Assembly (NCBI GenBank): GCA_046290225.1
Contig: JBKAGE010000040.1
Coordinates: forward strand, 1-64,000
DNA: 64,000 bases
Direction of reading: 5' to 3'
Source: Bradymonadia bacterium
Lineage (GTDB): Bacteria > Myxococcota_A > Bradymonadia > UBA7976 > UBA1532
Shown: positions 4,690 through 58,542 of the stretch, one piece after another
How the letters are laid out: every line of letters begins with the position of its first letter
Position numbering within the stretch: position 1 is the stretch's first letter
Position numbers and translations under genes: made by a program
The notes under the pieces: generated by a model
What the model saw: the letters and a program-made list of their open reading frames with translations, nothing else
Database searches by the model: none
What the model was told of the DNA's origin: nothing

Positions 4690-4715
4690 TACGCCGGGGA
4701 TGGGAGGCTGTTACA
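4690..4715 (-). promoter_or_regulatory. Candidate ECF sigma promoter TGTAAC-N16-CGTA upstream of spondin gene
   Basis: Minus strand TGTAAC(4715-4710) agcctcccatccccgg CGTA(4693-4690); same boxes and spacing as 25266-25291. Confidence 0.55.
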
Positions 4716-17689: not shown

Positions 17690-17893
17690 GGTTCCCTCCA
17701 AGAGCGTTCGGTGAGGTGCCACAACCTCGCTGGTCTGTATTGGCAAGATCGGATCCAACTTGTCCCCAGCATTTATCCCAGCATTTTCGGGCGGATTCGC
17801 TGTGACACACCGGTCTCAGGGACAAGAAGGTCACACACTCGAGTAGCCACCCCGAATTGGGGGTGTCCGCAGCAAAACACGCACCCTCTATCC

Positions 17894-18850
17894 ATGTCAG
17901 GGCATTTCCCGCTATCGTCCCTCACCGTGCACACACTCAAGCTCATTGTCGTCGTCTTCAGCCTTTTGGTGGGGCTGCCCGGAGCACACGCTCAAGAGGT
18001 GGACTACACCCGTACGCGATACCCCATCGTGCTGGCCCACGGCATGGCGGGCTTCGACACGCTCTTTGGTGCCGTGGACTACTGGTATGGCGTACCCGAG
18101 GCCCTCAGGGCAGGTGGCGCCGAGGTGTTCCTCACCCGGGTGAGCGCCTTCAACCGCACCGAAGAGCGGGCAGAGCAGTTACTGCGGCAGATCGAGATCA
18201 TCACCGCGCTCACGGGGAAGCCCCGGGTGAACATCATCGCTCACAGTCAGGGCGGTCTCGACAGCCGCTATGTGATGGGCGTCCGGCCCGATCTCGTGGC
18301 CTCGCTCACCACCGTTGCCACACCCCACAAGGGCACTGACGCTGCGGACTTCCTGAGAGACAACCTCAACGAAGGTGGCTTCACGGAGCGGGCCATCGGC
18401 TTCCTCGCTGATCAGCTCGGGGAGATCCTGGCGCTGCTCTCGGGGAGCGAGATCCCCCAAGACGCCATCGCCGCCACGGAGAGCCTCACCTCCGAAGGCG
18501 CCGCAGCCTTCAACGCCCGGTTCCCCTGGGGGCTGCCCGAGAATCGCTGCGGTGAAGGCCCTGCTGAGGTAGAGGGCATCAAGCTGTTCTCGATGTCTGG
18601 GGCCAGCGCCCTCACCAACCCCCTCGACGCCACCGACGCCGCCTTCGCCATCACCACCTTGCTCGTCGACGGTGACGACGACGGCCTGGTGCCGGTGTGC
18701 AGCTCTCACTTCGGTGTGGTGATCCGCGACGACTTCCGCCAGAACCACGGCGACGAGGTCGGCCAGCTCGTGGGCCTCGTCGGTCGCTCTGCAGACGCCC
18801 GGGCCATCCTGCGGGCTCACGCCCACCGACTGCGAGAGGCGGGCCTGTGA
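17894..18850 (+). CDS. Triacylglycerol lipase (Pseudomonas/Burkholderia family I type)
   Basis: YTRTRYPIVLAHG, AHSQGG elbow, DGLVPVCSSHFG, NHGDEV; signal peptide; start uncertain (17894 or 17927). Confidence 0.92.
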   Translation: MSGHFPLSSLTVHTLKLIVVVFSLLVGLPGAHAQEVDYTRTRYPIVLAHGMAGFDTLFGAVDYWYGVPEALRAGGAEVFLTRVSAFNRTEERAEQLLRQIEIITALTGKPRVNIIAHSQGGLDSRYVMGVRPDLVASLTTVATPHKGTDAADFLRDNLNEGGFTERAIGFLADQLGEILALLSGSEIPQDAIAATESLTSEGAAAFNARFPWGLPENRCGEGPAEVEGIKLFSMSGASALTNPLDATDAAFAITTLLVDGDDDGLVPVCSSHFGVVIRDDFRQNHGDEVGQLVGLVGRSADARAILRAHAHRLREAGL

Positions 18851-19560
18851 AACTTCCCGTGTTCAAGACGCCAGCGCTGAAGGTGCTGCAGAGTGTGGCC
18901 ATGGCCTGCGCCCTGCCGCTTGTCGTTGTGACCCCCTGCTCTGCGGAGCCCGCGACGCCTGCCTCTCTGAAGGGCACCACCCTCGACTGTCAGTCGGTGC
19001 GTTTCACGGGCACCCGACCTGTGGCCGACATCGCCCTGCGCCGATGCCTCGATCACTGCCTCACCCTCGAAGGCGAGCTGTCTCTCCCGGAGATCCGAAG
19101 CCTCTTCGTGCAGACGATCCGCGACCGACACCAACATGTAGCGCTGCGGGGCCAGCGTGCCCCGTCGAGCAAGGCCCTCGGCGCGCTCTTCGATCGGTAC
19201 CTGGGCTACCACCAGGCCGAGGAGGCCTTCCTCGCCGGCCTCGAGCAGCCTGTGAGCCCCAAGGTGCTCCGCGCCGCGCTGAACGATCTCGAAGCGCTGC
19301 AGCGCCAGTGGTTGGGCAGCGCGGCCGAAGCGTTTTTTGGTGAAGACAACCGCACCCGCCGTGTCGCCCTCGGCGCGCCAGGACACCCCATGACCTCGAC
19401 AGCGCCGGCCCAGGCGATGCTGGCCATCGAAATCGACGAGGCCCTTCAGCGGTGGGCCGTAGAGCGGGTGCCCCTCTCGGAGCAGCGCGCCCGCCTCGTG
19501 AAGTGGGTGGGCCCCAAAGCTGCCGACCGGCTCATCGAACAGATCGTCGAGCGCCGCTGA
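18847..19560 (+). CDS. Lipase-specific foldase (Lif)-like chaperone, short and divergent
   Basis: GTGA overlap with lipase stop; SLKGTTLD, RRCLDHCLTLEGE (cf. RxxFDY(F/C)L), LFDRYLGY, AEAFFGED, VGPKAADRL. Confidence 0.75.
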   Translation: MKLPVFKTPALKVLQSVAMACALPLVVVTPCSAEPATPASLKGTTLDCQSVRFTGTRPVADIALRRCLDHCLTLEGELSLPEIRSLFVQTIRDRHQHVALRGQRAPSSKALGALFDRYLGYHQAEEAFLAGLEQPVSPKVLRAALNDLEALQRQWLGSAAEAFFGEDNRTRRVALGAPGHPMTSTAPAQAMLAIEIDEALQRWAVERVPLSEQRARLVKWVGPKAADRLIEQIVERR

Positions 19561-21789: not shown

Positions 21790-23142
21790 ATGATGCGCTG
21801 CCTTCTGATCATCCTGTGTATGTTGCCATGCGCCTGCGGCGCCGCCCCTCGAGGCGACACACCGATGCCATGGCGATACACAGTACGCGTCGACAATGAG
21901 CACAACCGAATGCACGTACGCGCCTGCCTGCCCGGTGCAAAGGGCGCGCTGCTCCCTGGCGTAGAGGCAGGGTACGATCTCGTGCGCCCGCGACGGGCGA
22001 GGCCCATGCAGCTCGACCAGGGTGTGTGTGTGCGATACCAGCTCGACCTGGAAGCCCTCACCGCAGCCTCTGAGCCCTCGGGGCGCAATGCCGCCCTCGC
22101 CCCAGACCGGCTGCTCTGGCCCGGGCTCTGGCTCTGGCGCCCTGAAGAGGAGGCCCGACCACCTGAAGGCTCGACGGTGACATTCGACTTGCCTCCTGGC
22201 ACGTCGATCTCCACCGCCTGGCCTGCTGCAGGCGACGACACATTCCGCCTGCAGTCTTCAGCCCTGAGCTTTCGCAGCCGCATGGCGCTGGGCCCCTTGA
22301 AGCGCCGGATGAAGCTCGACGTTGCCGGAGGTACCATCGACGCGGTGTTCCTCGGTGGCGCCCCTACGGGACCCTTGGACGCGTGGCGAGACTGGATCAC
22401 CCGCGCGGCGCGGGGCACCGCGGCGCTGTACGGCGATCTGCCAGCACCTCATGTTCAGCTGCTGGTGGTGCTCGACGAAGGCTCGACGGTGCACTTCGGC
22501 ATGACCCAGAGAGGCGGAGGGCCCGGCATCGTGATGTTCGTGGGCCGCCATGTCCGCCCGTCGACGCTGAAGCGAGACTGGACCCTCACCCACGAGCTCT
22601 TTCACCTGGGTATGCCCCAAATCGCCCAGAACGACCTCTGGCTCTCCGAGGGGGTGACCACCTACAGCACGTTCGTCGCCATGGCCAGAGCGGGCACGCT
22701 CGACGCCGAGTCCGCCTGGGCCGAGCTCGCCGACGGCTTTCGCCGAGGGCAGCGGCAGGCTCGTGGGCTCAGCTTGCAGCATGAGGGCGAGCGTCTCCGG
22801 CGCACGGGCCGATATGCCCGGGTGTACTGGGGCGGCGCACTGTGGGCGCTGCGGGCCGATCTGGTGCTGAGGGCAAAGGGCAGCAGCCTGCCTCACCAGC
22901 TCATCAAGTGGCGTCAGCACCAACGACAGGACGATCGAGTGTGGTCTGCCCGCGCCCTCCTCGACACCAGCGCCCACTCAGCGGCGCTGCAGAGGCTGGT
23001 GCTTGAGCACGTCGACGCCTCGACTCAGCCAGGATCTGCAGGTCTGCTCGAGACTTTGGGTGTAGACGTAAACGATGCCGGAGAAGTGACGCTCACCCCT
23101 GCCTCAGGGGCGAAGATGCGTCGGGACATCATCCCAGAATGA
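21790..23142 (+). CDS. HEXXH metallopeptidase (M61/M1-like), probable lipoprotein
   Basis: THELFHLG followed by WLSEGVTTY; later YWGGALW; signal peptide with Cys. Confidence 0.8.
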   Translation: MMRCLLIILCMLPCACGAAPRGDTPMPWRYTVRVDNEHNRMHVRACLPGAKGALLPGVEAGYDLVRPRRARPMQLDQGVCVRYQLDLEALTAASEPSGRNAALAPDRLLWPGLWLWRPEEEARPPEGSTVTFDLPPGTSISTAWPAAGDDTFRLQSSALSFRSRMALGPLKRRMKLDVAGGTIDAVFLGGAPTGPLDAWRDWITRAARGTAALYGDLPAPHVQLLVVLDEGSTVHFGMTQRGGGPGIVMFVGRHVRPSTLKRDWTLTHELFHLGMPQIAQNDLWLSEGVTTYSTFVAMARAGTLDAESAWAELADGFRRGQRQARGLSLQHEGERLRRTGRYARVYWGGALWALRADLVLRAKGSSLPHQLIKWRQHQRQDDRVWSARALLDTSAHSAALQRLVLEHVDASTQPGSAGLLETLGVDVNDAGEVTLTPASGAKMRRDIIPE

Positions 23143-23845
23143 GGCCCAACTGGCTGGCCTCCTCAAGCACGGCGGTGACCTGCTCGAGGGGCTGCCCGCT
23201 GATTTGAGCCGCCGCTTCGGCTGAGAGACCCTCGTGTACCACCTTGAGGGCGAAGAGCAGCGGATCTCGCCCCCGGTGCCAGTGGGCCACACGACGGGGC
23301 AAAGACTGGAACGCCAGGACCAGGGTCTCGTCAGGCTCTGGCGACTCGGGCCGCTCGCCTGCCTGAAGCGCGCCGGCGAGGCTGGCGACGTCGTACGGGA
23401 ACGACAAGAGAGCCAGCGTGGGGTTGATGATGGGCCCGTCGAGGGTGTCGGGGTCCGGCAGAGGCGTGCCGTCGATGCTCACCTCGTAGAGCGCCCACTC
23501 GAACTCTGCCAGAGCCACGTGGGCCGGGGTCAGCCCCAAGCGGTCCTCGGCGCTCAGTGTGCTCACCAGAGCAGGCAGATGGACAGCGGCCTCGGGCAAT
23601 GTGGGATCTTTGGGTGGGTGCGCCAAGTAGTACAGCTCGAAGAGCTCGGACCAGCCATCCTCGCCCAACCAGGTGGCGAGCAAGGGAAACTCTGCCGAGA
23701 GCGCGGTGTGCACGTGCCGCCGCACGAAGCGTCGATAGATGGCCAGCCGAGCAGGGTGCACGCCGAGCAGCTCAGCCGCTTCGTCCACCGAGCGCTGCCC
23801 TCGGAGCACGTCGTGCATCACAGATTGGATCGATGACAGGCTCAT
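23129..23845 (-). CDS. DUF2063 (HvfC/BufC-like) MNIO partner protein
   Basis: RLAIYRRFVRRHVHTALSAEFP...LGEDGW...YYLAHPP; LAEFEWALYEV; NPTLALLSFPYDV; ATGA overlap with DUF692 gene. Confidence 0.88.
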   Translation of the reverse strand: MSLSSIQSVMHDVLRGQRSVDEAAELLGVHPARLAIYRRFVRRHVHTALSAEFPLLATWLGEDGWSELFELYYLAHPPKDPTLPEAAVHLPALVSTLSAEDRLGLTPAHVALAEFEWALYEVSIDGTPLPDPDTLDGPIINPTLALLSFPYDVASLAGALQAGERPESPEPDETLVLAFQSLPRRVAHWHRGRDPLLFALKVVHEGLSAEAAAQISGQPLEQVTAVLEEASQLGLILG

Positions 23846-24759
23846 CGGGCCTCCATCATCGGCAGAGCCTGACTGGTGGCCGCCTCACCCACAGCGCGGA
23901 TCTGACCCAGCTCTTCGAGCAAACGCTCGACGCCGGGGATCTCGGTGTCCCATTCGAGCAAGGTGGTCACAGGGCCGGTCTTCGACAGCACGTGTGCATA
24001 GAGCGCGAAGACCTCCTGCACGATGGGCTCCCCGTGGGTGTCGATGATGACGTCGCCGAGATCAGAATGTCCGGCCATGTGAATCTGCACCACCCGCTCC
24101 AGGGGCAGCGCGTCGATGAAGGCGTACGGATCCTGATTGTGGTTCCGGGCGTTGACGTAGACGTTGTTCACGTCGAGCAACAGCCCGCAGTCCGCCCGCT
24201 CGAGCATCTCGGCGATGAAGGCCCCTTCAGTGAGCTCGCTGGCGCCGTACTCGATGTAATACGAGGGGTTCTCCAGCAGAAAAGGGATCTCTCGACCCAG
24301 CGCCTCGGAGGCGGGCAGTGCCACCTCGCGCTTCACCTGCTCGATGCGCGTCACCACGTGATCGAGGGCCTCTCGGGTGAGAGGCACCGGGAGCAGCTCG
24401 TGATACTCCACGCCAAAGGCAGAGCTGAAACACAGGTGATCTGAGAACCAGTGTGCGCCGGAGCGCTCGACGAGGGCCCGGAGACGGCGCAGATAGTCCG
24501 TACTCAGGGGGCTCTCGCTGCCGATGCTCAGCGCAGTGCCATGGAGCACCAGGGGGTGGGCCCGGGCGCGCTCCAGAATCAGAGCCGGCTCGCCGCCGGG
24601 GGCCATGAAGTTCTCCGAGAGCAGCTCGAAGAAGCCCACCTCGTGGGCCAGGGGGGTGAGCCCCCCTCGGTCCGCACCGAAGAAATCCTGCCAGTGCTCT
24701 CTACGCAACCCGACCCCATAACCGAGATCGGGTACCTCGAACCGAGGGGATGTATACAT
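23842..24759 (-). CDS. DUF692 multinuclear non-heme iron oxidative enzyme (MNIO; HvfB/BufB/MbnB family)
   Basis: GVGLRREH, ELLSENF, LHGTALSIG, SDHLCF, LLENPSYY, LLDVNNVYVN, IHMAGH, IDTHG, LLEWD. Confidence 0.95.
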   Translation of the reverse strand: MYTSPRFEVPDLGYGVGLRREHWQDFFGADRGGLTPLAHEVGFFELLSENFMAPGGEPALILERARAHPLVLHGTALSIGSESPLSTDYLRRLRALVERSGAHWFSDHLCFSSAFGVEYHELLPVPLTREALDHVVTRIEQVKREVALPASEALGREIPFLLENPSYYIEYGASELTEGAFIAEMLERADCGLLLDVNNVYVNARNHNQDPYAFIDALPLERVVQIHMAGHSDLGDVIIDTHGEPIVQEVFALYAHVLSKTGPVTTLLEWDTEIPGVERLLEELGQIRAVGEAATSQALPMMEAR

Positions 24760-24768
24760 GCTCTACTC

Positions 24769-25164
24769 TCAGCTCTTGTCGCCGCTGCAGCCCTTCTCAC
24801 CACTGCAGCTCTTCTCACCAGAGGCCTTCTTGTGGCCAGAGCAGCCCTTTTCACCGCTGCAGCTCTTCTCACCGGCCGCTTCTTTGTGACCGCTGCAGCC
24901 CTTTTCGCCGCTGCAGCTCTTCTCGCCCGTGGCGGCCTTCTCGCCGTTGCAGCCCTTCTCACCGCTGCAACTCTTCTCACCCTTGGCCATGTCTTTGTGG
25001 CCCGAGCAGCCTTTGTCACCGCTGCAGCCCTTCTCGGCCTGCATCTGATTCTCCGCCTGGGGCGCAGCACCACCACAGGCGGTGAGACCACCGAGGGCGA
25101 GACCGCCGAGGGCGAGGCTCATGGTGACGGTACCGATCGACAGCTTACGGCTCTGAGTGCTCAT
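24769..25164 (-). CDS. MNIO RiPP precursor: lipoprotein signal plus ten (E/D)K(G/S)C(S/N)G repeats (131 aa)
   Basis: GGAGG SD before ATG 25164; hydrophobic signal ending LTAC; Cys/Lys/Gly repeats; ends 9 bp before DUF692 gene. Confidence 0.88.
   Translation of the reverse strand: MSTQSRKLSIGTVTMSLALGGLALGGLTACGGAAPQAENQMQAEKGCSGDKGCSGHKDMAKGEKSCSGEKGCNGEKAATGEKSCSGEKGCSGHKEAAGEKSCSGEKGCSGHKKASGEKSCSGEKGCSGDKS
24772..25040 (-). repeat. Coding about 54-bp tandem repeat (5 units, GEKSCSGEKGCSGHKxAx)
   Basis: Recurrent ccgctgcagc(t/c)cttctc units on the + strand. Confidence 0.9.
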
Positions 25165-25265
25165 ATGAAATGCCTCCAACATTAGATGTGTGTATTTGTA
25201 GACTGATCGACTGTCCGACTCGCCAATCAGTTGAAGCAAGAGCTTCATCAGGCTTCGCAGGGGTT

Positions 25266-25291
25266 TACGACACCTGTTGGAGGGGGTTACA
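25266..25291 (-). promoter_or_regulatory. Candidate ECF sigma promoter TGTAAC-N16-CGTA of MNIO operon
   Basis: Minus strand TGTAAC(25291-25286) cccctccaacaggtgt CGTA(25269-25266), preceded by an A-tract; about 100 nt upstream of precursor ATG. Confidence 0.6.
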
Positions 25292-25337: not shown

Positions 25338-28300
25338 TTAGAAGCAGCCGAGCGTGCCCGAAACCGAGAACAGCGTCGATGGGTCGGGCGGGCTCGACGT
25401 CCAGACCAGGACGAAGCGCTCACCGTCCCAGCTGACCGCCGTGTGACGGATGTCTCCGGCGGCTGCGCCCGCTGCGATGGGCGCCGTCAGGGGGCTGCCG
25501 TCTCGAGCGAAGCCCTGCACCGTGGGGGCGTAGCGGCCCCCACCGAAATCTTCTGCTGAAGCCAGCACCAACATGCTCTGATCCAGCGCCCAGGCCGCCG
25601 AGATTTGCTCCAAGCCCCAGCTGAACGACGAGCGTGTCAGCAACACGTCTTCATTGAGACGCTCACCGCGTGTGTCCACCAGGGTCAGATAGACCAGGTA
25701 GGCGCCGGCCTCCCGATTGGCGTCGGCCCAGACGATGGCGAAGGCCTCGCCAGTCCAGAAGATGTCGATCACCGACGACGGGAAGAAGCTGTCGGTGAGC
25801 GCGATGTCGTCGATGAGGCGCTCCCCACTGGGATCGAGCAGCGTGAAGAACACCTCCAGGGTCTGGCGACGGCTGTCCTGCCATGCCACACCATACGCCT
25901 GCTCGTTGAAGGCCATCTTGGGCCCTGTCGATCTGCCGAAGCTGTCGGTCACCTGCTGGGCCCCTTCGAACTCACCACCAAAGTCGGTGTTGCCATAGAA
26001 GAGGTGACTGCCGACCTCGGGATCAGACTGGCTCCAGACCGCCCCTACCTGGCCATGCCAGCCCAAGTCGGCCCCCTGGCTGTCGAAGACGCGGCCGATG
26101 ACGCTCTGATCGTTCACCGGCTGACCCCCGCGATCCACCTGATGCAGATACACCTGCCAGCCACGGACCAGAGCGTCGTGGGCAATGGCGAAGCCCTGCT
26201 CGGCCCAGACGATGGCCGGCGCAGCCACGGTGAAGAAGCCTTGGGAGATCACCACCTCTTCGGTGACGGGGCGCCCATCTCGGTCGAGGCCCATATAGCG
26301 CACCTCGCTGCCCTCCTGGTTCGGGTCGAGGGCCAACCAGGCCAGGCCGTGTATCTCGTCGCCCCACGCCAGCCGCGGAGATGTGTCGTAGTCGGCGTTC
26401 CGCGTCAGCTGGAAGCGCTCGCCCAGCTGGGGCCCGGCGTCTTCGTCGGTGTTGCCGTCGCAATCTTCGTCCACCCCGTCACAGAGCAGATCGGCGCGTG
26501 CTGGATCACCGGGGGTGCAGCTGTCGACGATCTGACCCCCGCGGCACTCCAGCACGCCGAAGCGCCCGCACTGCCCCACGCCACAGCGTGTACGCAGGCC
26601 TTGGTAGTCTTCGTCCACTTGACCATCGCAGTCGTCGTCCACGCCATTACACGTGACGTCGTTGGGGGCAGGCTCGCCATCTCGGCAGGTGTTCACCTCC
26701 TGGCCATTCTGGCAGACCACCGCGCCCTCATTGGCGCACGCGCCCTGACCACAGCCCACCAGTTGTGCACGGTAGTCTTCGTCGGCGGCGCCATCACAGT
26801 CGTCGTCGATCCCATCACAGGTGCGATCGGCTGCGCTCGGCTCACCAGGGGCGCAAGAATTCACCAGCGCGCCGTCTTGACAGACGATGCGGCCCACCGC
26901 GGCGCAGGCCCCCACACCACATTGCACCACCTCGGGGACGAAGCCCTCGTCGATGTTGCCATCACAATCATCATCCACCCCATCACAGTCGTCGTCGGGC
27001 TGAGGCTGGCCTGGCGTGCAGCTGTCCTGCCGGCTGCCGTTGACGCAGATACGCTGCCCCACAGATTCACACTGGCCGACGCCACACTGCGTGCCCACAG
27101 CGGTGTAGGCCTCGTCGATGGCGCCATCGCAATCGTCATCCAGGCCATCACAGCTCTCGTCGTCACCGACGGGGGCCCCTGGCGTGCAGTCCTCCGTTTC
27201 CTGGCCATCGACACAGCGCAACGCCCCTGTGGCCGCGCACACGCCCACACCACACCGCAGCTCACGGGGGCGATACCGCTCGTCTACCTGGCCATCACAG
27301 TCGCTGTCGCGACCATCACACAGGGCATCGTCCTCGACGGGTTCACCGGCTGTACAGGTATCGCGGACCTCACCGTTGACGCACACCTCGGCGCCAGCGG
27401 CAGCGCACACGCCCACACCACAGGTGGTCCGAGCACCCACGAAGTCTTCATCGACGCGGCCGTCACAGTCATCGTCCACCCCATCACAGGTGGCATCGTC
27501 AGGGGCTGGCTCGTCCGCCCGGCACGTGTCGATGACCTCACCGGCGCGACATACAGTGATACCTGTGGCGGCGCAGGCTCCATCTCCGCAGGCCACCTGC
27601 CGGCTCACGTAGCCTTCGTCGACGAGTCCATCACAATCCGCGTCGACCCCATCACACAGGCGGTCGGGCCCCTCTGGTGCGCCAGGATCGCACCGCTCGA
27701 CCAGCTGCCCACCGTCACAGAGGCGCAGACCCGTAGCGGCGCAGACACCCAGCCCGCAGTTGATCTCGATCTCGGCCACATCTTCGTCGGCGCGGCCGTC
27801 GCAATCTTCGTCCAGCCCGTCACAGCGATCGTCAGATGGGGCCGGCCGGCCAGGCGTACACAGCTCTCGCTCGACACCGGCGACACAGGTCGTCACCCCT
27901 CGAGCGACGCAGATCCCCTCACCGCAGGTCACCGCTCGACGCACGTAGCCCTCGTCCACGAGGCCATCGCAGTCATCGTCTACACCATCACAATTCGTGT
28001 CGGCGTCAGGCGCCCCAGGCGTACAGCCATCGACGAGGCGCCCGCCCACGCACACGGCTTGCCCTTCTGCGGCACACGCTCCGGTGCCACACGCGGTGAC
28101 CGCCGGGCGGTGATCTTCGTCGGCGGCGCCATCACAATCTTCGTCCACCCCATCGCAGCGGGCGTCGATGGCGAGGGGCTCTCCGGCGACGCAGTTGTCG
28201 ACGGTCTGGCCATTGCGGCAGAACAGCACCCCTTGTGCACGGCACATGCCCACCCCACAGATGGTGGCCGTGATCTCGAAGTCCTCGTCGACGCGGCCAT

Positions 28301-29564
28301 CACAGTCGTCATCGATGTTGTCGCAGGTGACGTCGTTCTCGATCGGATCCACAGGCGAGCAGGTATCGGAGATCTCTCCGTCGACACATACAGTGCGGCC
28401 GCCGGCGGCACATGCGCCGACGCCACAGTCCACAGCGCGACCGATGAAGCCCTCGTCGGCGGCGCCGTCGCAGTCGTCATCGATGTTGTCGCAGTCGGTG
28501 TCGGGCCGTGGATCGGCCGGCCGGGCCGAGCACGTCAGCGCCGTCAGATCCGCCGGGTCGCAGGCATAGCGACCTGTGACGGCGCAGGCCCCCACGCCGA
28601 TGTCGCACGGCGTGTCGAGCAGCGCTCGGAAGTCTTCGTCCACGAGGCCATCACAGTCATTGTCCGCCCCGTCGCCACACAGCTCGGGCTCCGGCGTGCG
28701 TTGCTCGGCGTCGCACATCGTGCCCCGGCCGCTCTCGTCGCACACCACCCGGCCCGAGCCGGCGCAGCCGCCGAGCCCTTCGATGCACGCGGTGCCCAGA
28801 TCGGGGTAGTCCTCGTCGGTACGACCGTCGCAGTCGTCGTCGATGCCGTTGCACAGCTCCGGCAAGGGATCCATCGGGGCCCCTTCGCACACCACCTGAC
28901 CGCCCTCATCGCACTGGAACACGCCGCCGACGGCGCAGGCGCCCTCACCAACGGTGCAACGCTCGCCCACCTGTAAACCCTCATCGATCTGCCCATCGCA
29001 GTCGTCGTCGGTGCCGTTGCAGGTCTCATCCACCCCTTCGAGAGGGGGCGCTTCACACCGCAGCGTGTCGCCGCCATCGCCACAGACCACCAGCCCTTGG
29101 GCCCGACAGGCGCCACTGGTGACCTCACAGGCTGCGCCGAGCAGCAAGCCCTCGCCGCTGTCGGTCTGGTAGAGCACCTGAGGGTCTGCCTCGTCGACCT
29201 GCCCGTCACAGTCGTCGTCGAGGGCGTTCCCGCAGCGCTCTATCGGTCCAGGATCCACAGTGGGCCGGCAGATGATGATCTCGTCTTCACAGACCTGCAC
29301 CCCTGACTGTCCGCACACGCCCTCTGCAGGTGATCCGTCGGGCGCCAGCGGATCATCACAGGGATCTCCGGCCCCCTGACATGGGGTGCCCACAGCAGAT
29401 CCGTCGGTGGAGATCACACAGCTCCCGGCGCTGCAGATCTGGCCAGCGCTGCATTCGTCATTCGAACTGCAGCTCGCGGCGTCGCTGTCCTCCTCGGGGG
29501 TGCATCCCCACAGAGGGCCCAAGACGAGTGCAAGCGACATCACGGCGGTGAGATTGAGGTGCAT
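25338..29564 (-). CDS. Large lipoprotein with about 17 MopE-type (putative metal-binding) repeats and a C-terminal beta-rich domain
   Basis: Lipobox LWGC; about 17 x C(D/N)GxDxDCDGxxDE, each followed by CGxGxC; GGGAGG before ATG 29564. Confidence 0.88.
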   Translation of the reverse strand: MHLNLTAVMSLALVLGPLWGCTPEEDSDAASCSSNDECSAGQICSAGSCVISTDGSAVGTPCQGAGDPCDDPLAPDGSPAEGVCGQSGVQVCEDEIIICRPTVDPGPIERCGNALDDDCDGQVDEADPQVLYQTDSGEGLLLGAACEVTSGACRAQGLVVCGDGGDTLRCEAPPLEGVDETCNGTDDDCDGQIDEGLQVGERCTVGEGACAVGGVFQCDEGGQVVCEGAPMDPLPELCNGIDDDCDGRTDEDYPDLGTACIEGLGGCAGSGRVVCDESGRGTMCDAEQRTPEPELCGDGADNDCDGLVDEDFRALLDTPCDIGVGACAVTGRYACDPADLTALTCSARPADPRPDTDCDNIDDDCDGAADEGFIGRAVDCGVGACAAGGRTVCVDGEISDTCSPVDPIENDVTCDNIDDDCDGRVDEDFEITATICGVGMCRAQGVLFCRNGQTVDNCVAGEPLAIDARCDGVDEDCDGAADEDHRPAVTACGTGACAAEGQAVCVGGRLVDGCTPGAPDADTNCDGVDDDCDGLVDEGYVRRAVTCGEGICVARGVTTCVAGVERELCTPGRPAPSDDRCDGLDEDCDGRADEDVAEIEINCGLGVCAATGLRLCDGGQLVERCDPGAPEGPDRLCDGVDADCDGLVDEGYVSRQVACGDGACAATGITVCRAGEVIDTCRADEPAPDDATCDGVDDDCDGRVDEDFVGARTTCGVGVCAAAGAEVCVNGEVRDTCTAGEPVEDDALCDGRDSDCDGQVDERYRPRELRCGVGVCAATGALRCVDGQETEDCTPGAPVGDDESCDGLDDDCDGAIDEAYTAVGTQCGVGQCESVGQRICVNGSRQDSCTPGQPQPDDDCDGVDDDCDGNIDEGFVPEVVQCGVGACAAVGRIVCQDGALVNSCAPGEPSAADRTCDGIDDDCDGAADEDYRAQLVGCGQGACANEGAVVCQNGQEVNTCRDGEPAPNDVTCNGVDDDCDGQVDEDYQGLRTRCGVGQCGRFGVLECRGGQIVDSCTPGDPARADLLCDGVDEDCDGNTDEDAGPQLGERFQLTRNADYDTSPRLAWGDEIHGLAWLALDPNQEGSEVRYMGLDRDGRPVTEEVVISQGFFTVAAPAIVWAEQGFAIAHDALVRGWQVYLHQVDRGGQPVNDQSVIGRVFDSQGADLGWHGQVGAVWSQSDPEVGSHLFYGNTDFGGEFEGAQQVTDSFGRSTGPKMAFNEQAYGVAWQDSRRQTLEVFFTLLDPSGERLIDDIALTDSFFPSSVIDIFWTGEAFAIVWADANREAGAYLVYLTLVDTRGERLNEDVLLTRSSFSWGLEQISAAWALDQSMLVLASAEDFGGGRYAPTVQGFARDGSPLTAPIAAGAAAGDIRHTAVSWDGERFVLVWTSSPPDPSTLFSVSGTLGCF

Positions 29565-29846
29565 CAACTTCCTCCCCAGAAGGTTGTTCACCTGTTCAGG
29601 CGACAGTGAGGGGGAAACCTATACAGAAAACATCGAGTGAATATTTTCGGAGTTGGGCCAAAGCCCCAGTACATCAGGGCCGACGCATGATCAGGCACAG
29701 GGCCACTGGCCGGGGTTCAGCGCGCCCGTCACGGCTGCCGCCAGGGTTGCTCGAGGGGCTCTGGCCATGATACTCAGCGACGCCCGACTTTCCGCCTGTT
29801 CGGAGCCCCCAGTGATGCGAGCTGGGGGGTGTTTTGGAGAAGCCAG

Positions 29847-56958: not shown

Positions 56959-58542
56959 TCACACTGGCGGCAGGGTGATCGACCAAATCGATGCACCCTC
57001 TCGATCTCGCAGTGTCACCGTCATGACCTTGCTCTGGGGTTCGATCTCCACCTCACCGAAGAATTGCAGCCCTGCCGACGGCGACAGGTTCTTGATGGCC
57101 CCTGCCGCTTTCTGAAACCTCACCTCAGGGCCAAAGGTCGGATCGAGATCGTTGGGGCCGAAGGTGCCCGCATGGAGCGGCCCGGCGACGAACTCCCAGA
57201 AGGGTTCGAAGTCCACCCCCTGCCCGCGACTCGGATCATAATGATGGGCTGCGGCGTAGTGCACGTCGGCGGTGAGCCACACCACGTTCTTCACCCCAGC
57301 GGCCTTCATCTCCGTGAGCAGCGCGGCGAGCTCCAGCTCCCGCCCCTTCGGGGTACCCGGCTCCGCGTTGGCCACCCCTTCGAATGCCGTGTCGCCATGC
57401 CTGATCACCACACCCACGGGGTTGCCCACGGAGATGATCTTCCACGTGGCCCGCGAGGCCTTCAGCTGCTGCACGAGCCAGCGGCGCTGCTCGGCCCCCA
57501 GCCACTGGGTGTAGTCGCCTTGGACGGTTTGGGTGTTGTGGGTACTGCGCCCTCGGTGGCTGCGGTTGTCGAGCACGAAGACCTCAGCGAGAGGCCCAAG
57601 GGGCACCACACGGTAAATGCGCTCAGGATCCACAGCAGACCAGCGCAGAGGTGTGTACTCCACGAGGGCCCGCCGCGCCCGCGCACGGAGCAACTGCATA
57701 CTGCGCACGGTGGGGTAGTGCGCTGTGCTGCGCCAGATCTCTCCACATGGGTGCCAGTCGTTGGTGATCTCGTGATCGTCCCAGGTGATGATCTGCGGCA
57801 CCTGTGCGTTGAAGCGCCTCAGGTGATCGTCCATGAAGTTGTATCGATAGCGGCCCCGAAACTCGTCGAGGGTCTCCGCAGCCTTCGAGGTGGCTTCGGT
57901 GACGATGTTGCGCCACACCCCACCTTCGGGCAGCTGAACCCGCTCGGGGATCGGCACGTCGGCATACATCATGTCGCCACAGTGCACGAAGACGTCGGGA
58001 TCACGCTCAGCCATGGCATCGAAGATGCGATAGCCACCCGCCTCGGGGCTGATGCCGTATCCCTGCCCTGCGATGTCGCCACCCCACACAAGGCGCAGAG
58101 GCTTCGACGGTAACCCCCCAAGCCGCTCTGGCGTACGAAACCGCCCCTTCATCGGGGCGCTCACGGTCTTCAAATCAGCGAGATCTTCACACCAGAGTTC
58201 ATAAAAGACCTGCTGGCCCGGCCGCAGCTGCTTCAAATCGAGGCGCCCGGTGAAGTCGCTCGCCGAGAGCACCTCGGGCCCCGCCACCGTCACCGCGTCG
58301 GCCATGGATTCGGTGTAGGCATACCGCAGCCTCAGTCGCGCCGGACGATCGGCCCGAGCCCACAACACAGCTCGATCGGGCCCCACATCCCCCGATTGCA
58401 CACCATCAGGCAACATCGGCCTGCCGGTGATCACCCCAGGGGCTTGCCGGCGCATCAGTACCCCAGCGAGGGCGGTCCCGCCGGCCACGCCAGCGGCCAG
58501 TGACACACCATGTCGCAGAAACGTTCGCCGATCTGAACTCAT
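56959..58542 (-). CDS. phoD: Alkaline phosphatase D
   Basis: Tat DRRTFL; GVQSGD, HCGDMMYAD, WDDHEI, LDNRSHR, LTADVHY, GPLHAGTFGP. Confidence 0.93.
   Translation of the reverse strand: MSSDRRTFLRHGVSLAAGVAGGTALAGVLMRRQAPGVITGRPMLPDGVQSGDVGPDRAVLWARADRPARLRLRYAYTESMADAVTVAGPEVLSASDFTGRLDLKQLRPGQQVFYELWCEDLADLKTVSAPMKGRFRTPERLGGLPSKPLRLVWGGDIAGQGYGISPEAGGYRIFDAMAERDPDVFVHCGDMMYADVPIPERVQLPEGGVWRNIVTEATSKAAETLDEFRGRYRYNFMDDHLRRFNAQVPQIITWDDHEITNDWHPCGEIWRSTAHYPTVRSMQLLRARARRALVEYTPLRWSAVDPERIYRVVPLGPLAEVFVLDNRSHRGRSTHNTQTVQGDYTQWLGAEQRRWLVQQLKASRATWKIISVGNPVGVVIRHGDTAFEGVANAEPGTPKGRELELAALLTEMKAAGVKNVVWLTADVHYAAAHHYDPSRGQGVDFEPFWEFVAGPLHAGTFGPNDLDPTFGPEVRFQKAAGAIKNLSPSAGLQFFGEVEIEPQSKVMTVTLRDREGASIWSITLPPV

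What the first reader, a model, noticed from the sequence alone, without database searches (positions are those of the whole stretch)
23129..25164. MNIO (DUF692) RiPP operon with a new-looking ten-Cys (E/D)K(G/S)C(S/N)G repeat precursor
Seen: precursor, DUF692 and DUF2063 in one tight operon (9-bp gap, ATGA overlap). The core has five 18-19-aa units, each with two Cys six residues apart, three ending GHK. Established: MNIO plus DUF2063 partners convert precursor Cys into oxazolone/thiooxazole-type copper-binding groups (methanobactin, H. influenzae HvfA with EGKCG repeats, bufferins). The KxCSG motif differs from EGKCG and from the DUF2282 bufferin pattern. Inference: a distinct myxobacterial family of multivalent metal-chelating RiPPs, with His as possible extra ligands. 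Best candidate for an undescribed system here.
Basis: partly seen in the sequence, partly recalled or inferred. Interest (0 to 1): 0.85.

Follow-up and report, generated by a model that had tools for sequence, protein, structure and literature searches.

The report
Membrane-anchored copper-sponge peptide operon
These three genes encode a small cysteine-repeat protein with a lipoprotein-type signal, an iron enzyme and its helper, which would likely turn it into a membrane-anchored copper-binding peptide under a likely stress-switched promoter; this is a variant of a recently described class, not a new kind of system.

Summary
The operon is real as described: precursor (24769-25164), MNIO (23842-24759), DUF2063 partner (23129-23845), minus strand. 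It fits the captophorin class (bufferin/oxazolin; 5-thiooxazole metallophores). (1) An eleventh Cys in a lipobox (LTAC, Cys30), present in all 19 precursors of the enzyme's clade: likely a lipid-anchored peptide like Neisseria NedA. (2) A GTAAC-N16-CGTA promoter at 25290-25266, seen in 13 of 19 orthologous upstream regions and in this genome before a SigF-like sigma/NrsF pair, msrA and a second MNIO cluster. The precursor fails the curated HvfA, BufA1 and BufA2 models, but is not isolated: three orthologues carry literal EGKCG, 98 relatives exist at 50% clustering, and lipobox EKSCGG/EKGCSG precursors from Nannocystis are already in a published dataset. The GHK histidines are not conserved. 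What is peculiar: all ten core Cys are followed by Ser/Asn, against Gly in 90 of 90 orthologous Cys, and the enzyme alone has Thr at a known specificity site. Chemistry and copper binding are untested. The scan noted a six-residue-repeat cassette on another genome before. New variant of a known kind; interest 0.4.

The parts
25266..25290 (-). Likely ECF-sigma (SigF/ECF16-type) promoter, GTAAC-N16-CGTA
   Evidence: 13 of 19 orthologous upstream regions, shuffles mean 0.022; same motif before the genome's sigma/NrsF pair and before 9 of 11 close copies of that sigma, 0 of 11 more distant sigmas; coordinates
25173..25177 (-). Ribosome-binding site GGAGG of the precursor
   Evidence: sequence
24769..25164 (-). 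Precursor peptide gene (131 aa, 11 Cys)
   Evidence: no HvfA/BufA hit in NCBIfam
25075..25164 (-). Lipoprotein-type signal peptide ending in lipobox LTAC (Cys30)
   Evidence: read from the sequence by pattern, no SignalP run; an equivalent Cys at position 25-32 in 19 of 19 clade precursors; Lgt and LspA present in the genome
24772..25035 (-). Core: five units of (E/D)K(S/G)C(S/N)G hexamer pairs, ten Cys, 54-nt period
23842..24759 (-). MNIO (DUF692) maturase; conserved H73, H108, E163, D196, N199, H227, D240, H242, E269; base D271; R19-R20; T272 at the FonB Phe250 site
   Evidence: PF05114 307 bits; BufB 293/310, HvfB 238/360 bits; alignment to 3BWW; residue numbers; that these nine residues are the iron ligands is recalled, not from a call
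23129..23845 (-). DUF2063 (PME1) partner protein
   Evidence: PF09836 53.7 bits; HvfC 64.9/142 bits; found after the MNIO in 18 of 18 extended clade loci

Best explanation
The operon encodes a ten-cysteine repeat precursor with a lipobox, an MNIO enzyme and its DUF2063 partner, and likely makes a membrane-anchored, thiooxazole-bearing peptide that would soak up excess copper in the cell envelope when a SigF-like stress sigma factor likely switches it on. Steps: (1) shown: three-gene cassette, motif upstream, sigma/NrsF pair, Lgt and LspA in the genome; (2) inferred: metal or oxidant stress releases the sigma from NrsF and the operon is transcribed; (3) inferred from FonBC, HvfBC, BufBC: the MNIO-PME1 heterodimer oxidises core Cys to 5-thiooxazole (-4 Da each) in the cytoplasm; (4) inferred from NedA: Sec export, lipidation at Cys30, signal cleavage, leaving a 102-aa tethered chain, probably sent to the outer membrane since residue +2 is Gly; (5) inferred: the flexible chain binds several Cu(I) ions through thiooxazole S/N, without a fixed fold.
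For: Families and gene order. Catalytic base D271 aligns with the D of LERDF in 3BWW, the FonB Asp249 position; the second Arg typical of Lys-Cys/EGKCG enzymes (PMC13097082) is kept in 19 of 20 clade enzymes and the EGKCG-type control L085, and in 1 of 25 rows I labelled Buf2. The enzyme sits in a 20-row clade (SH-aLRT 96; 98 in a 49-row FastTree) apart from the Buf2 group; all 19 visible precursors have a lipobox and short Cys repeats, three with EGKCG. Two-Cys 18-aa units parallel the 17-aa two-EGKCG units of oxazolins (PMC12452194). All characterised MNIO-PME1 products carry 5-thiooxazole and generally bind Cu (PMC13097082); NedA is triacylated and modified (PMC13056109). The promoter resembles Caulobacter SigF GTAACC-N16-CGAA, which controls DUF2282-DUF692-DUF2063 operons (PMC3511200), and B. 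japonicum EcfF GTAAC(g,a)-N14-15-(c,t)CG(t,a) (PMC3420878). TGTAAC-Nn-CGTA peaks at n=16 (9) and 17 (5) against 0-3 at the other 17 spacings.
Against: No chemistry, lipidation, expression or metal binding was measured. FonBC accepts only Gly or Ala after the Cys, while every core Cys here is followed by Ser or Asn. The enzyme scores below all curated cut-offs (BufB 293/310 is best), and its clade's link to EGKCG enzymes is weak (89, unresolved at 74; one canonical EGKCG enzyme only). The putative regulon (msrA, redoxin, Rieske, FAD oxidoreductase) points to oxidation as much as to copper; no copper gene is a conserved neighbour. The promoter pattern was drawn from the same 19 sequences it was counted in, and 6 of 19 lack it. 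Pfam NrsF was found in only 6 of 19 genomes.
Confidence: 0.65

Rival explanations
1. The peptide is thiooxazole-modified and lipidated as above, but its main job is to buffer oxidants or other thiol-reactive metals (Cd, Cr, Ag) in the envelope, not copper.
For: The same promoter precedes msrA, an AhpC/TSA redoxin, a Rieske protein and an FAD oxidoreductase. Caulobacter SigF responds to dichromate and cadmium, B. japonicum EcfF to H2O2. No conserved copper neighbour.
Against: Every characterised product of this class that was tested binds Cu; the same SigF type controls bufferin 1 genes.
Confidence: 0.17
2. The Cys-Ser/Asn context is poorly accepted, so the precursor is only partly modified or not at all and acts as a tethered thiol/disulfide-rich, metallothionein-like binder.
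For: FonBC is blocked by any residue but Gly/Ala after Cys; 90 of 90 Cys in 18 orthologous precursors are followed by Gly.
Against: The enzyme is intact, with all conserved residues; Cys-Ser is common in the wider family (180 Cys-Ser against 213 Cys-Gly in 98 relatives) and two such precursors sit before MNIO genes (L045, L046); mutating FonB Phe250 changes which flanks are accepted, and this enzyme alone in its clade has Thr there (others Asn 15, His 4).
Confidence: 0.12
3. The enzyme makes a different group from 5-thiooxazole, for example a cross-link between the paired Cys or a ring that uses the neighbouring Ser.
For: Own clade, below all curated cut-offs; changed flank and changed specificity residue; MNIOs outside the bufferin cluster do varied chemistry.
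Against: The enzyme is closest to BufB/HvfB and far from ChrH (45 bits), ApyH (103) and MbnB (27); it has a PME1 partner; orthologues act on exact EGKCG motifs.
Confidence: 0.05
4. The small ORF is a collagen-like or other low-complexity protein that happens to lie before the MNIO gene.
For: Its only library hits are collagen-like adhesins (far below cut-off), Collagen (24.9/27.2) and DUF7640 (40.7/28.1).
Against: Gly is not at every third residue throughout; a homologous precursor precedes the MNIO in all 19 clade loci where the upstream DNA is present; the other DUF7640 matches in 201 genomes are unrelated six-residue-periodic proteins.
Confidence: 0.01

Closest known systems
NedABC of Neisseria dentiae, a lipidated oxazolin-type RiPP (PMC13056109, passages read)
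   Same: Lipoprotein signal, repeated Cys motifs, MNIO plus partner; proposed to hold copper at the membrane.
   Different: NedA has three EGKCG pentamers; here ten Cys in (E/D)K(S/G)C(S/N)G hexamers, no Lys before the Cys, Ser/Asn after it.
Oxazolin HvfABC, fontiphorin FonABC, gonophorin (Buf_EGKCG / Lys-Cys captophorins; PMC13097082, PMC12452194)
   Same: Gene order A-B-C, DUF2063 partner, two-Cys repeat units (17 aa there, 18 here), Arg-Arg and catalytic Asp in the enzyme, no extra tailoring gene (as in fon).
   Different: Six- not five-residue Cys spacing; NF050137 and NF050188 not hit; Thr not Phe at the specificity site; lipobox instead of a plain Sec signal.
Bufferins 1 and 2 of Caulobacter vibrioides (DUF2282; Buf_6/12Cys)
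   Same: Best-scoring enzyme model (BufB 293/310 bits); SigF/NrsF-type promoter as for the DUF2282 operons; about 16% of Buf2 precursors are predicted lipoproteins.
   Different: No DUF2282 or BufA2 hit; no Cys-Lys motif; enzyme outside the Buf2 group in both trees; sigma, anti-sigma and DoxX are not in the cluster.
Nannocystis precursors in Dataset S2 of PMC13097082 (e.g. beside WP_269041315.1, WP_267707390.1)
   Same: Lipobox (read by eye) and EKSCKG/EKSCGG/EKGCGG/EKGCSG hexamers beside MNIO-PME1.
   Different: Mostly Cys-Gly, a long Ala/Thr linker and a C-terminal CGEGTCG pair; MNIO and PME1 share one accession there (a fusion); listed only, not characterised in the sections I read.
Methanobactin MbnABC
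   Same: MNIO acting on Cys to make a copper ligand.
   Different: MbnB model 27/325 bits; no PME1 in mbn clusters; oxazolone-thioamide and copper uptake rather than sequestration.

Membership tests
Captophorins (MNIO-PME1 class) | MNIO gene of PF05114 with catalytic Asp | tested here: met
   307 bits; D271 aligned to 3BWW
Captophorins (MNIO-PME1 class) | Adjacent DUF2063 (PME1) partner, order precursor-MNIO-partner | tested here: met
   PF09836 53.7 bits over 27.2
Captophorins (MNIO-PME1 class) | Cys-rich precursor with export signal | tested here: met
   10 core Cys, signal with lipobox by pattern
Captophorins (MNIO-PME1 class) | 5-thiooxazole installed; Cu bound | not testable with these tools
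   needs co-expression, MS, UV, NMR
Oxazolin / HvfA (Buf_EGKCG) | Repeated EGKCG pentamer; NF050137 or NF050188 over cut-off | tested here: not met
   no hit for the precursor at E<=1; controls L085 53.4 and L078 30.1 bits pass the 19.5 cut-off; 1 of 90 family members hits NF050137 at E<=0.001
Oxazolin / HvfA (Buf_EGKCG) | HvfB (NF003818) and HvfC (NF050145) over cut-off | tested here: not met
   237.8/360 and 64.9/142 bits
Oxazolin / HvfA (Buf_EGKCG) | Enzyme signature Arg15-Arg16 and Phe250 (FonB numbering) | tested here: inconclusive
   R19-R20 kept, Phe replaced by T272; Arg numbering matched by motif, FonB itself was not aligned
Oxazolin / HvfA (Buf_EGKCG) | Enzyme groups with EGKCG-type MNIOs | tested here: inconclusive
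   89 support, unresolved; one canonical control
Bufferin 1 | DUF2282 precursor | tested here: not met
   no PF10048 hit; control L013 68 bits
Bufferin 2 | NF050166 precursor, Cys-Lys motifs | tested here: not met
   no hit; control L003 76.2/60
Bufferin 2 | BufB NF050167 over cut-off; enzyme in the Buf2 group | tested here: not met
   293.1/310, a near miss; outside the Buf2 group
Methanobactin | MbnB TIGR04159 over cut-off | tested here: not met
   27.3/325
RiPP-lipoprotein hybrids (NedA/DybA type) | Lipobox Cys after a hydrophobic signal; Lgt and LspA in the host | tested here: met
   pattern match only, no SignalP
RiPP-lipoprotein hybrids (NedA/DybA type) | Lipid shown on the Cys | not testable with these tools
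   needs MS of the membrane fraction
SigF/NrsF (ECF16-type) regulon | GTAAC-type promoter; sigma with NrsF anti-sigma and the same motif upstream | tested here: met
   -10 box CGTA rather than CGAA; the sigma's ECF group was not formally assigned and transcription was not measured

The most novel reading that the evidence does not exclude
This lineage has switched all ten target sites from Cys-Gly to Cys-Ser/Asn together with a unique Thr at the enzyme's specificity site, giving a lipid-tethered ten-site metal sponge with a new substrate rule or a different product; it would be the first handle on a large uncurated hexamer-repeat family of MNIO substrates from uncultured predatory bacteria, wired into a SigF-like redox regulon.
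Probability: 0.15. Interest if true: 0.7.

Novelty: new variant of a known kind. Interest (0 to 1): 0.4.

Why it matters
It extends the captophorin class by a six-residue-repeat branch that curated models miss (98 clusters at 50% identity), with both secreted and lipid-anchored forms. It offers a clean natural test of what sets MNIO site choice: Cys-Ser/Asn here against Cys-Gly in all close orthologues, and one changed residue at a site already shown to matter in FonB. The shared promoter names a likely regulator and regulon, which makes the open question copper versus oxidant stress testable. It does not change what is known about the class.

Tried and rejected
AlphaFold2 on the mature precursor alone (pLDDT 42) and with a 26-row alignment (48.5): no confident fold, so the beta-helix modelled for some EGKCG proteins is neither shown nor excluded; no fold search was run on these models. 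ESM Atlas: nearest clusters are unnamed Myxococcota proteins at 0.86-0.89, leads only. DUF7640 hit over cut-off: taken as a six-residue periodicity match, since only 5 of 26 family members match at E<=0.05 and other matches are unrelated repeat proteins. Viral contig scans: four loci, none with an MNIO; two collagen-like, one EGKCG/EF-hand-type gene, one out of any fitting frame. Sigma-70 promoter scan: none. Conserved fourth gene: none; the convergent M61-like peptidase is shared by 3 of 18 extended loci, read as family synteny. DoxX: one weak hit on another contig. His/GHK as ligands: not conserved. Link between T272 and Cys-Ser: not general, as L046 has Cys-Ser with Asn at that site. The careful tree did not finish; one search is the quick tree. 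No complex prediction was sent (textbook pair, enzyme-substrate). Organism names for the 98 relatives were not obtained, so their taxonomic range and genomic context stay open.
Full report
OBSERVATION. The three ORFs lie on the minus strand as stated: precursor 25164-24769, MNIO 24759-23842, partner 23845-23129, with a 9-bp gap and an ATGA overlap. The core has ten Cys in five pairs six residues apart. The DNA period is 54 nt with copies 82% identical and synonymous differences. The hexamer motif occurs ten times here and four times, singly, in the rest of the genome. Pfam confirms the MNIO (307 bits) and DUF2063 (53.7).

WHAT WAS MISSED, 1: A LIPOBOX. The precursor has 11 Cys. Cys30 closes a hydrophobic signal as L-T-A-C. 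I searched 41 related genomes (25 with a match), 201 phylum genomes (91 with a match at E<=1e-50, 30 loci returned) and the genome collection (14 loci). A 66-row quick tree puts the enzyme in a 20-row clade (SH-aLRT 96); a 49-row FastTree, with 17 long or redundant rows dropped, gives 98. Upstream DNA was present for 19 of the 20, and all 19 precursors have a Cys at position 25-32 after a hydrophobic stretch and Gly or Ala. Lgt and LspA are in the genome. This is pattern matching, not SignalP. Residue +2 is Gly, so the acidic inner-membrane retention signal described in PMC13056109 is absent.

THE MOTIF IS A VARIANT, NOT AN ISLAND. Clade precursors use EKSCGG, EKKCGG, EHKCGG, EKSCGAGSCG and, in L019, L025 and L029, exact EGKCG. 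Spacing is five or six. A profile of 26 sequences found 98 representatives at E<=0.001 among 1.84 billion proteins (9 of them were seeds). Among the 98, 28 have a lipobox by a crude pattern, six is the commonest Cys spacing (164; five: 51), and the residue after Cys is Gly 213, Ser 180, Lys 47 times. These hits have no genomic context; two metagenome loci show Cys-Ser precursors with plain signals before MNIO genes (L045, L046). One named hit is from an Oligoflexia bacterium. Curated models miss the family: the precursor has no HvfA or BufA hit while controls pass; of 90 members scanned, 1 hit NF050137, 1 NF050188 and 2 NF050166 at E<=0.001. The host's phylum is inferred as Myxococcota from Atlas neighbours; no call names it.

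WHAT IS PECULIAR TO THIS COPY. All ten core Cys are followed by Ser (9) or Asn (1), against Gly at 90 of 90 Cys in the 18 other clade precursors. It has the most Cys in the clade (10; others 3-7). The enzyme has Thr272 where H. somni 3BWW has Phe and the 19 other clade enzymes have Asn (15) or His (4). PMC13097082 reports that FonBC accepts only Gly or Ala after Cys and that Phe250 shapes flank tolerance. One case cannot show co-evolution, and L046 has Cys-Ser with Asn. GHK is in 2 of 19 precursors, so His ligands are not a family trait.

WHAT WAS MISSED, 2: THE PROMOTER. GTAAC-N15-17-C(G/A)TA lies 81-160 nt before the start in 13 of 19 clade precursors, never on the other strand; shuffles give a mean of 0.022, maximum 1. 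The pattern was read off these sequences, so independent checks matter. In this genome 26 sites match GTAAC-N16-17-C(G/A)TA, some surely chance; TGTAAC-Nn-CGTA peaks at 16 and 17. I annotated 20 genes behind 17 of the 26 sites: an ECF sigma with an NrsF gene behind it (38.1 bits over 26.8), MsrA, an AhpC/TSA redoxin, a Rieske protein, an FAD oxidoreductase, DUF547, DUF4331, and also unrelated-looking genes (PilZ, a transglycosylase, PKD). A site also precedes the second MNIO cluster on C77. The motif stands before 9 of 11 close copies of that sigma (64-100% identity) and 0 of 11 more distant ones. The four genomes with no match to that sigma at E<=1e-25 (G002, G017, G006, G012; 86-95% complete) all lack the exact motif before their precursor; G013 and G021 have the sigma but lack the motif, and four genomes outside the family have the motif but only distant sigmas. 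Pfam NrsF was found in 6 of 19 genomes; the genome's own anti-sigma matched behind 7 of the 11 close sigmas. Published SigF/ECF16 promoters are GTAACC-N16-CGAA (PMC3511200), similar ones before the S. meliloti DUF692 operon (PMC6180224) and GTAAC(g,a)-N14-15-(c,t)CG(t,a) (PMC3420878).

MECHANISM. Most likely (0.65): stress frees the sigma; MNIO and partner convert core Cys to 5-thiooxazoles; the peptide is exported, lipidated at Cys30 and binds several Cu(I) ions as an unstructured, tethered chain. Gene content, motifs and conservation are shown; every biochemical step is inferred from FonABC, HvfABC, BufABC and NedABC. Rivals: oxidant or other-metal buffering (0.17), poor modification because of Cys-Ser (0.12), other chemistry (0.05), unrelated low-complexity ORF (0.01).

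COMPARISON WITH WHAT IS KNOWN. It works like a captophorin and meets the genomic criteria of that class; it is not a member of the curated HvfA, BufA1, BufA2 or methanobactin families. Dataset S2 of PMC13097082 holds eight rows of one Nannocystis-type precursor with hexamer repeats (six contain EKGCSG; two accessions checked as Nannocystis) and three EKSCKG rows; KSCSG was not found there. Lipidated oxazolins are shown for NedA. The motifs were not found in the two held supplements of PMC12452194 (I did not check whether these hold sequences) nor in any relevant main text (listings). So the branch is catalogued but, in what I could search, unnamed and untested.

WHAT I READ. PMC12452194: outline, passages, Results parts 1-2 of 4, a supplement term search. 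PMC13097082: outline, Results parts 1-3 of 4, supplement term searches. PMC13056109, PMC3511200, PMC6180224, PMC3420878: passages only. The supplements of PMC13056109 were not seen and may list this clade. Other papers: search listings only. Earlier scan notes describe a six-residue-repeat cassette and a sigma-controlled bufferin cluster on other genomes; they are unchecked and not counted as support.

VERDICT. Observation confirmed; interpretation partly supported; new variant of a known kind; interest 0.4.

Noticed in passing
G000:C77:92564-93978 (L041): Second MNIO-PME1 cluster with a 154-aa lipobox precursor of 16 core Cys in GCPA repeats, behind the same promoter motif; relatives in L040 and L030.
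   Followed up: partly
G000:C82:163290-163880 (L122); C79 (two places); C48: The genome holds six MNIO genes; the C82 one follows a DUF2282-like precursor (by eye) and lacks the exact promoter motif.
   Followed up: partly
G000:C37:302012-303302 (L104): ECF sigma factor with NrsF-family anti-sigma and the motif upstream: the likely regulator; its putative regulon includes MsrA, a redoxin, DUF547 and DUF4331.
   Followed up: yes
window 4690-4714 (-) and 58110-58135 (+): Two more copies of the promoter motif; the first precedes a lipoprotein with a Gly-rich linker and a spondin-like domain (recalled, not scanned).
   Followed up: no
window 21790-23142 (+): M61-like peptidase converging on the operon with a 14-bp overlap; same neighbour in L087, L088, L090 (38-41% identity).
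   Followed up: partly
window 25338-29591 (-): 1417-aa protein with 13 MopE-type (PF11617) Cys repeats just upstream, same strand; not conserved beside orthologues.
   Followed up: partly
window 17711-19560 (+): Lipase followed by a lipase chaperone-like gene.
   Followed up: no
L042 (G011:C149): 318-aa Cys-rich lipoprotein-like protein with a CxxCH motif directly before a divergent MNIO: a possible protein substrate.
   Followed up: no
L076, L077: HvfA-type precursors over the NCBIfam cut-off with no MNIO in the 3-kb locus.
   Followed up: no
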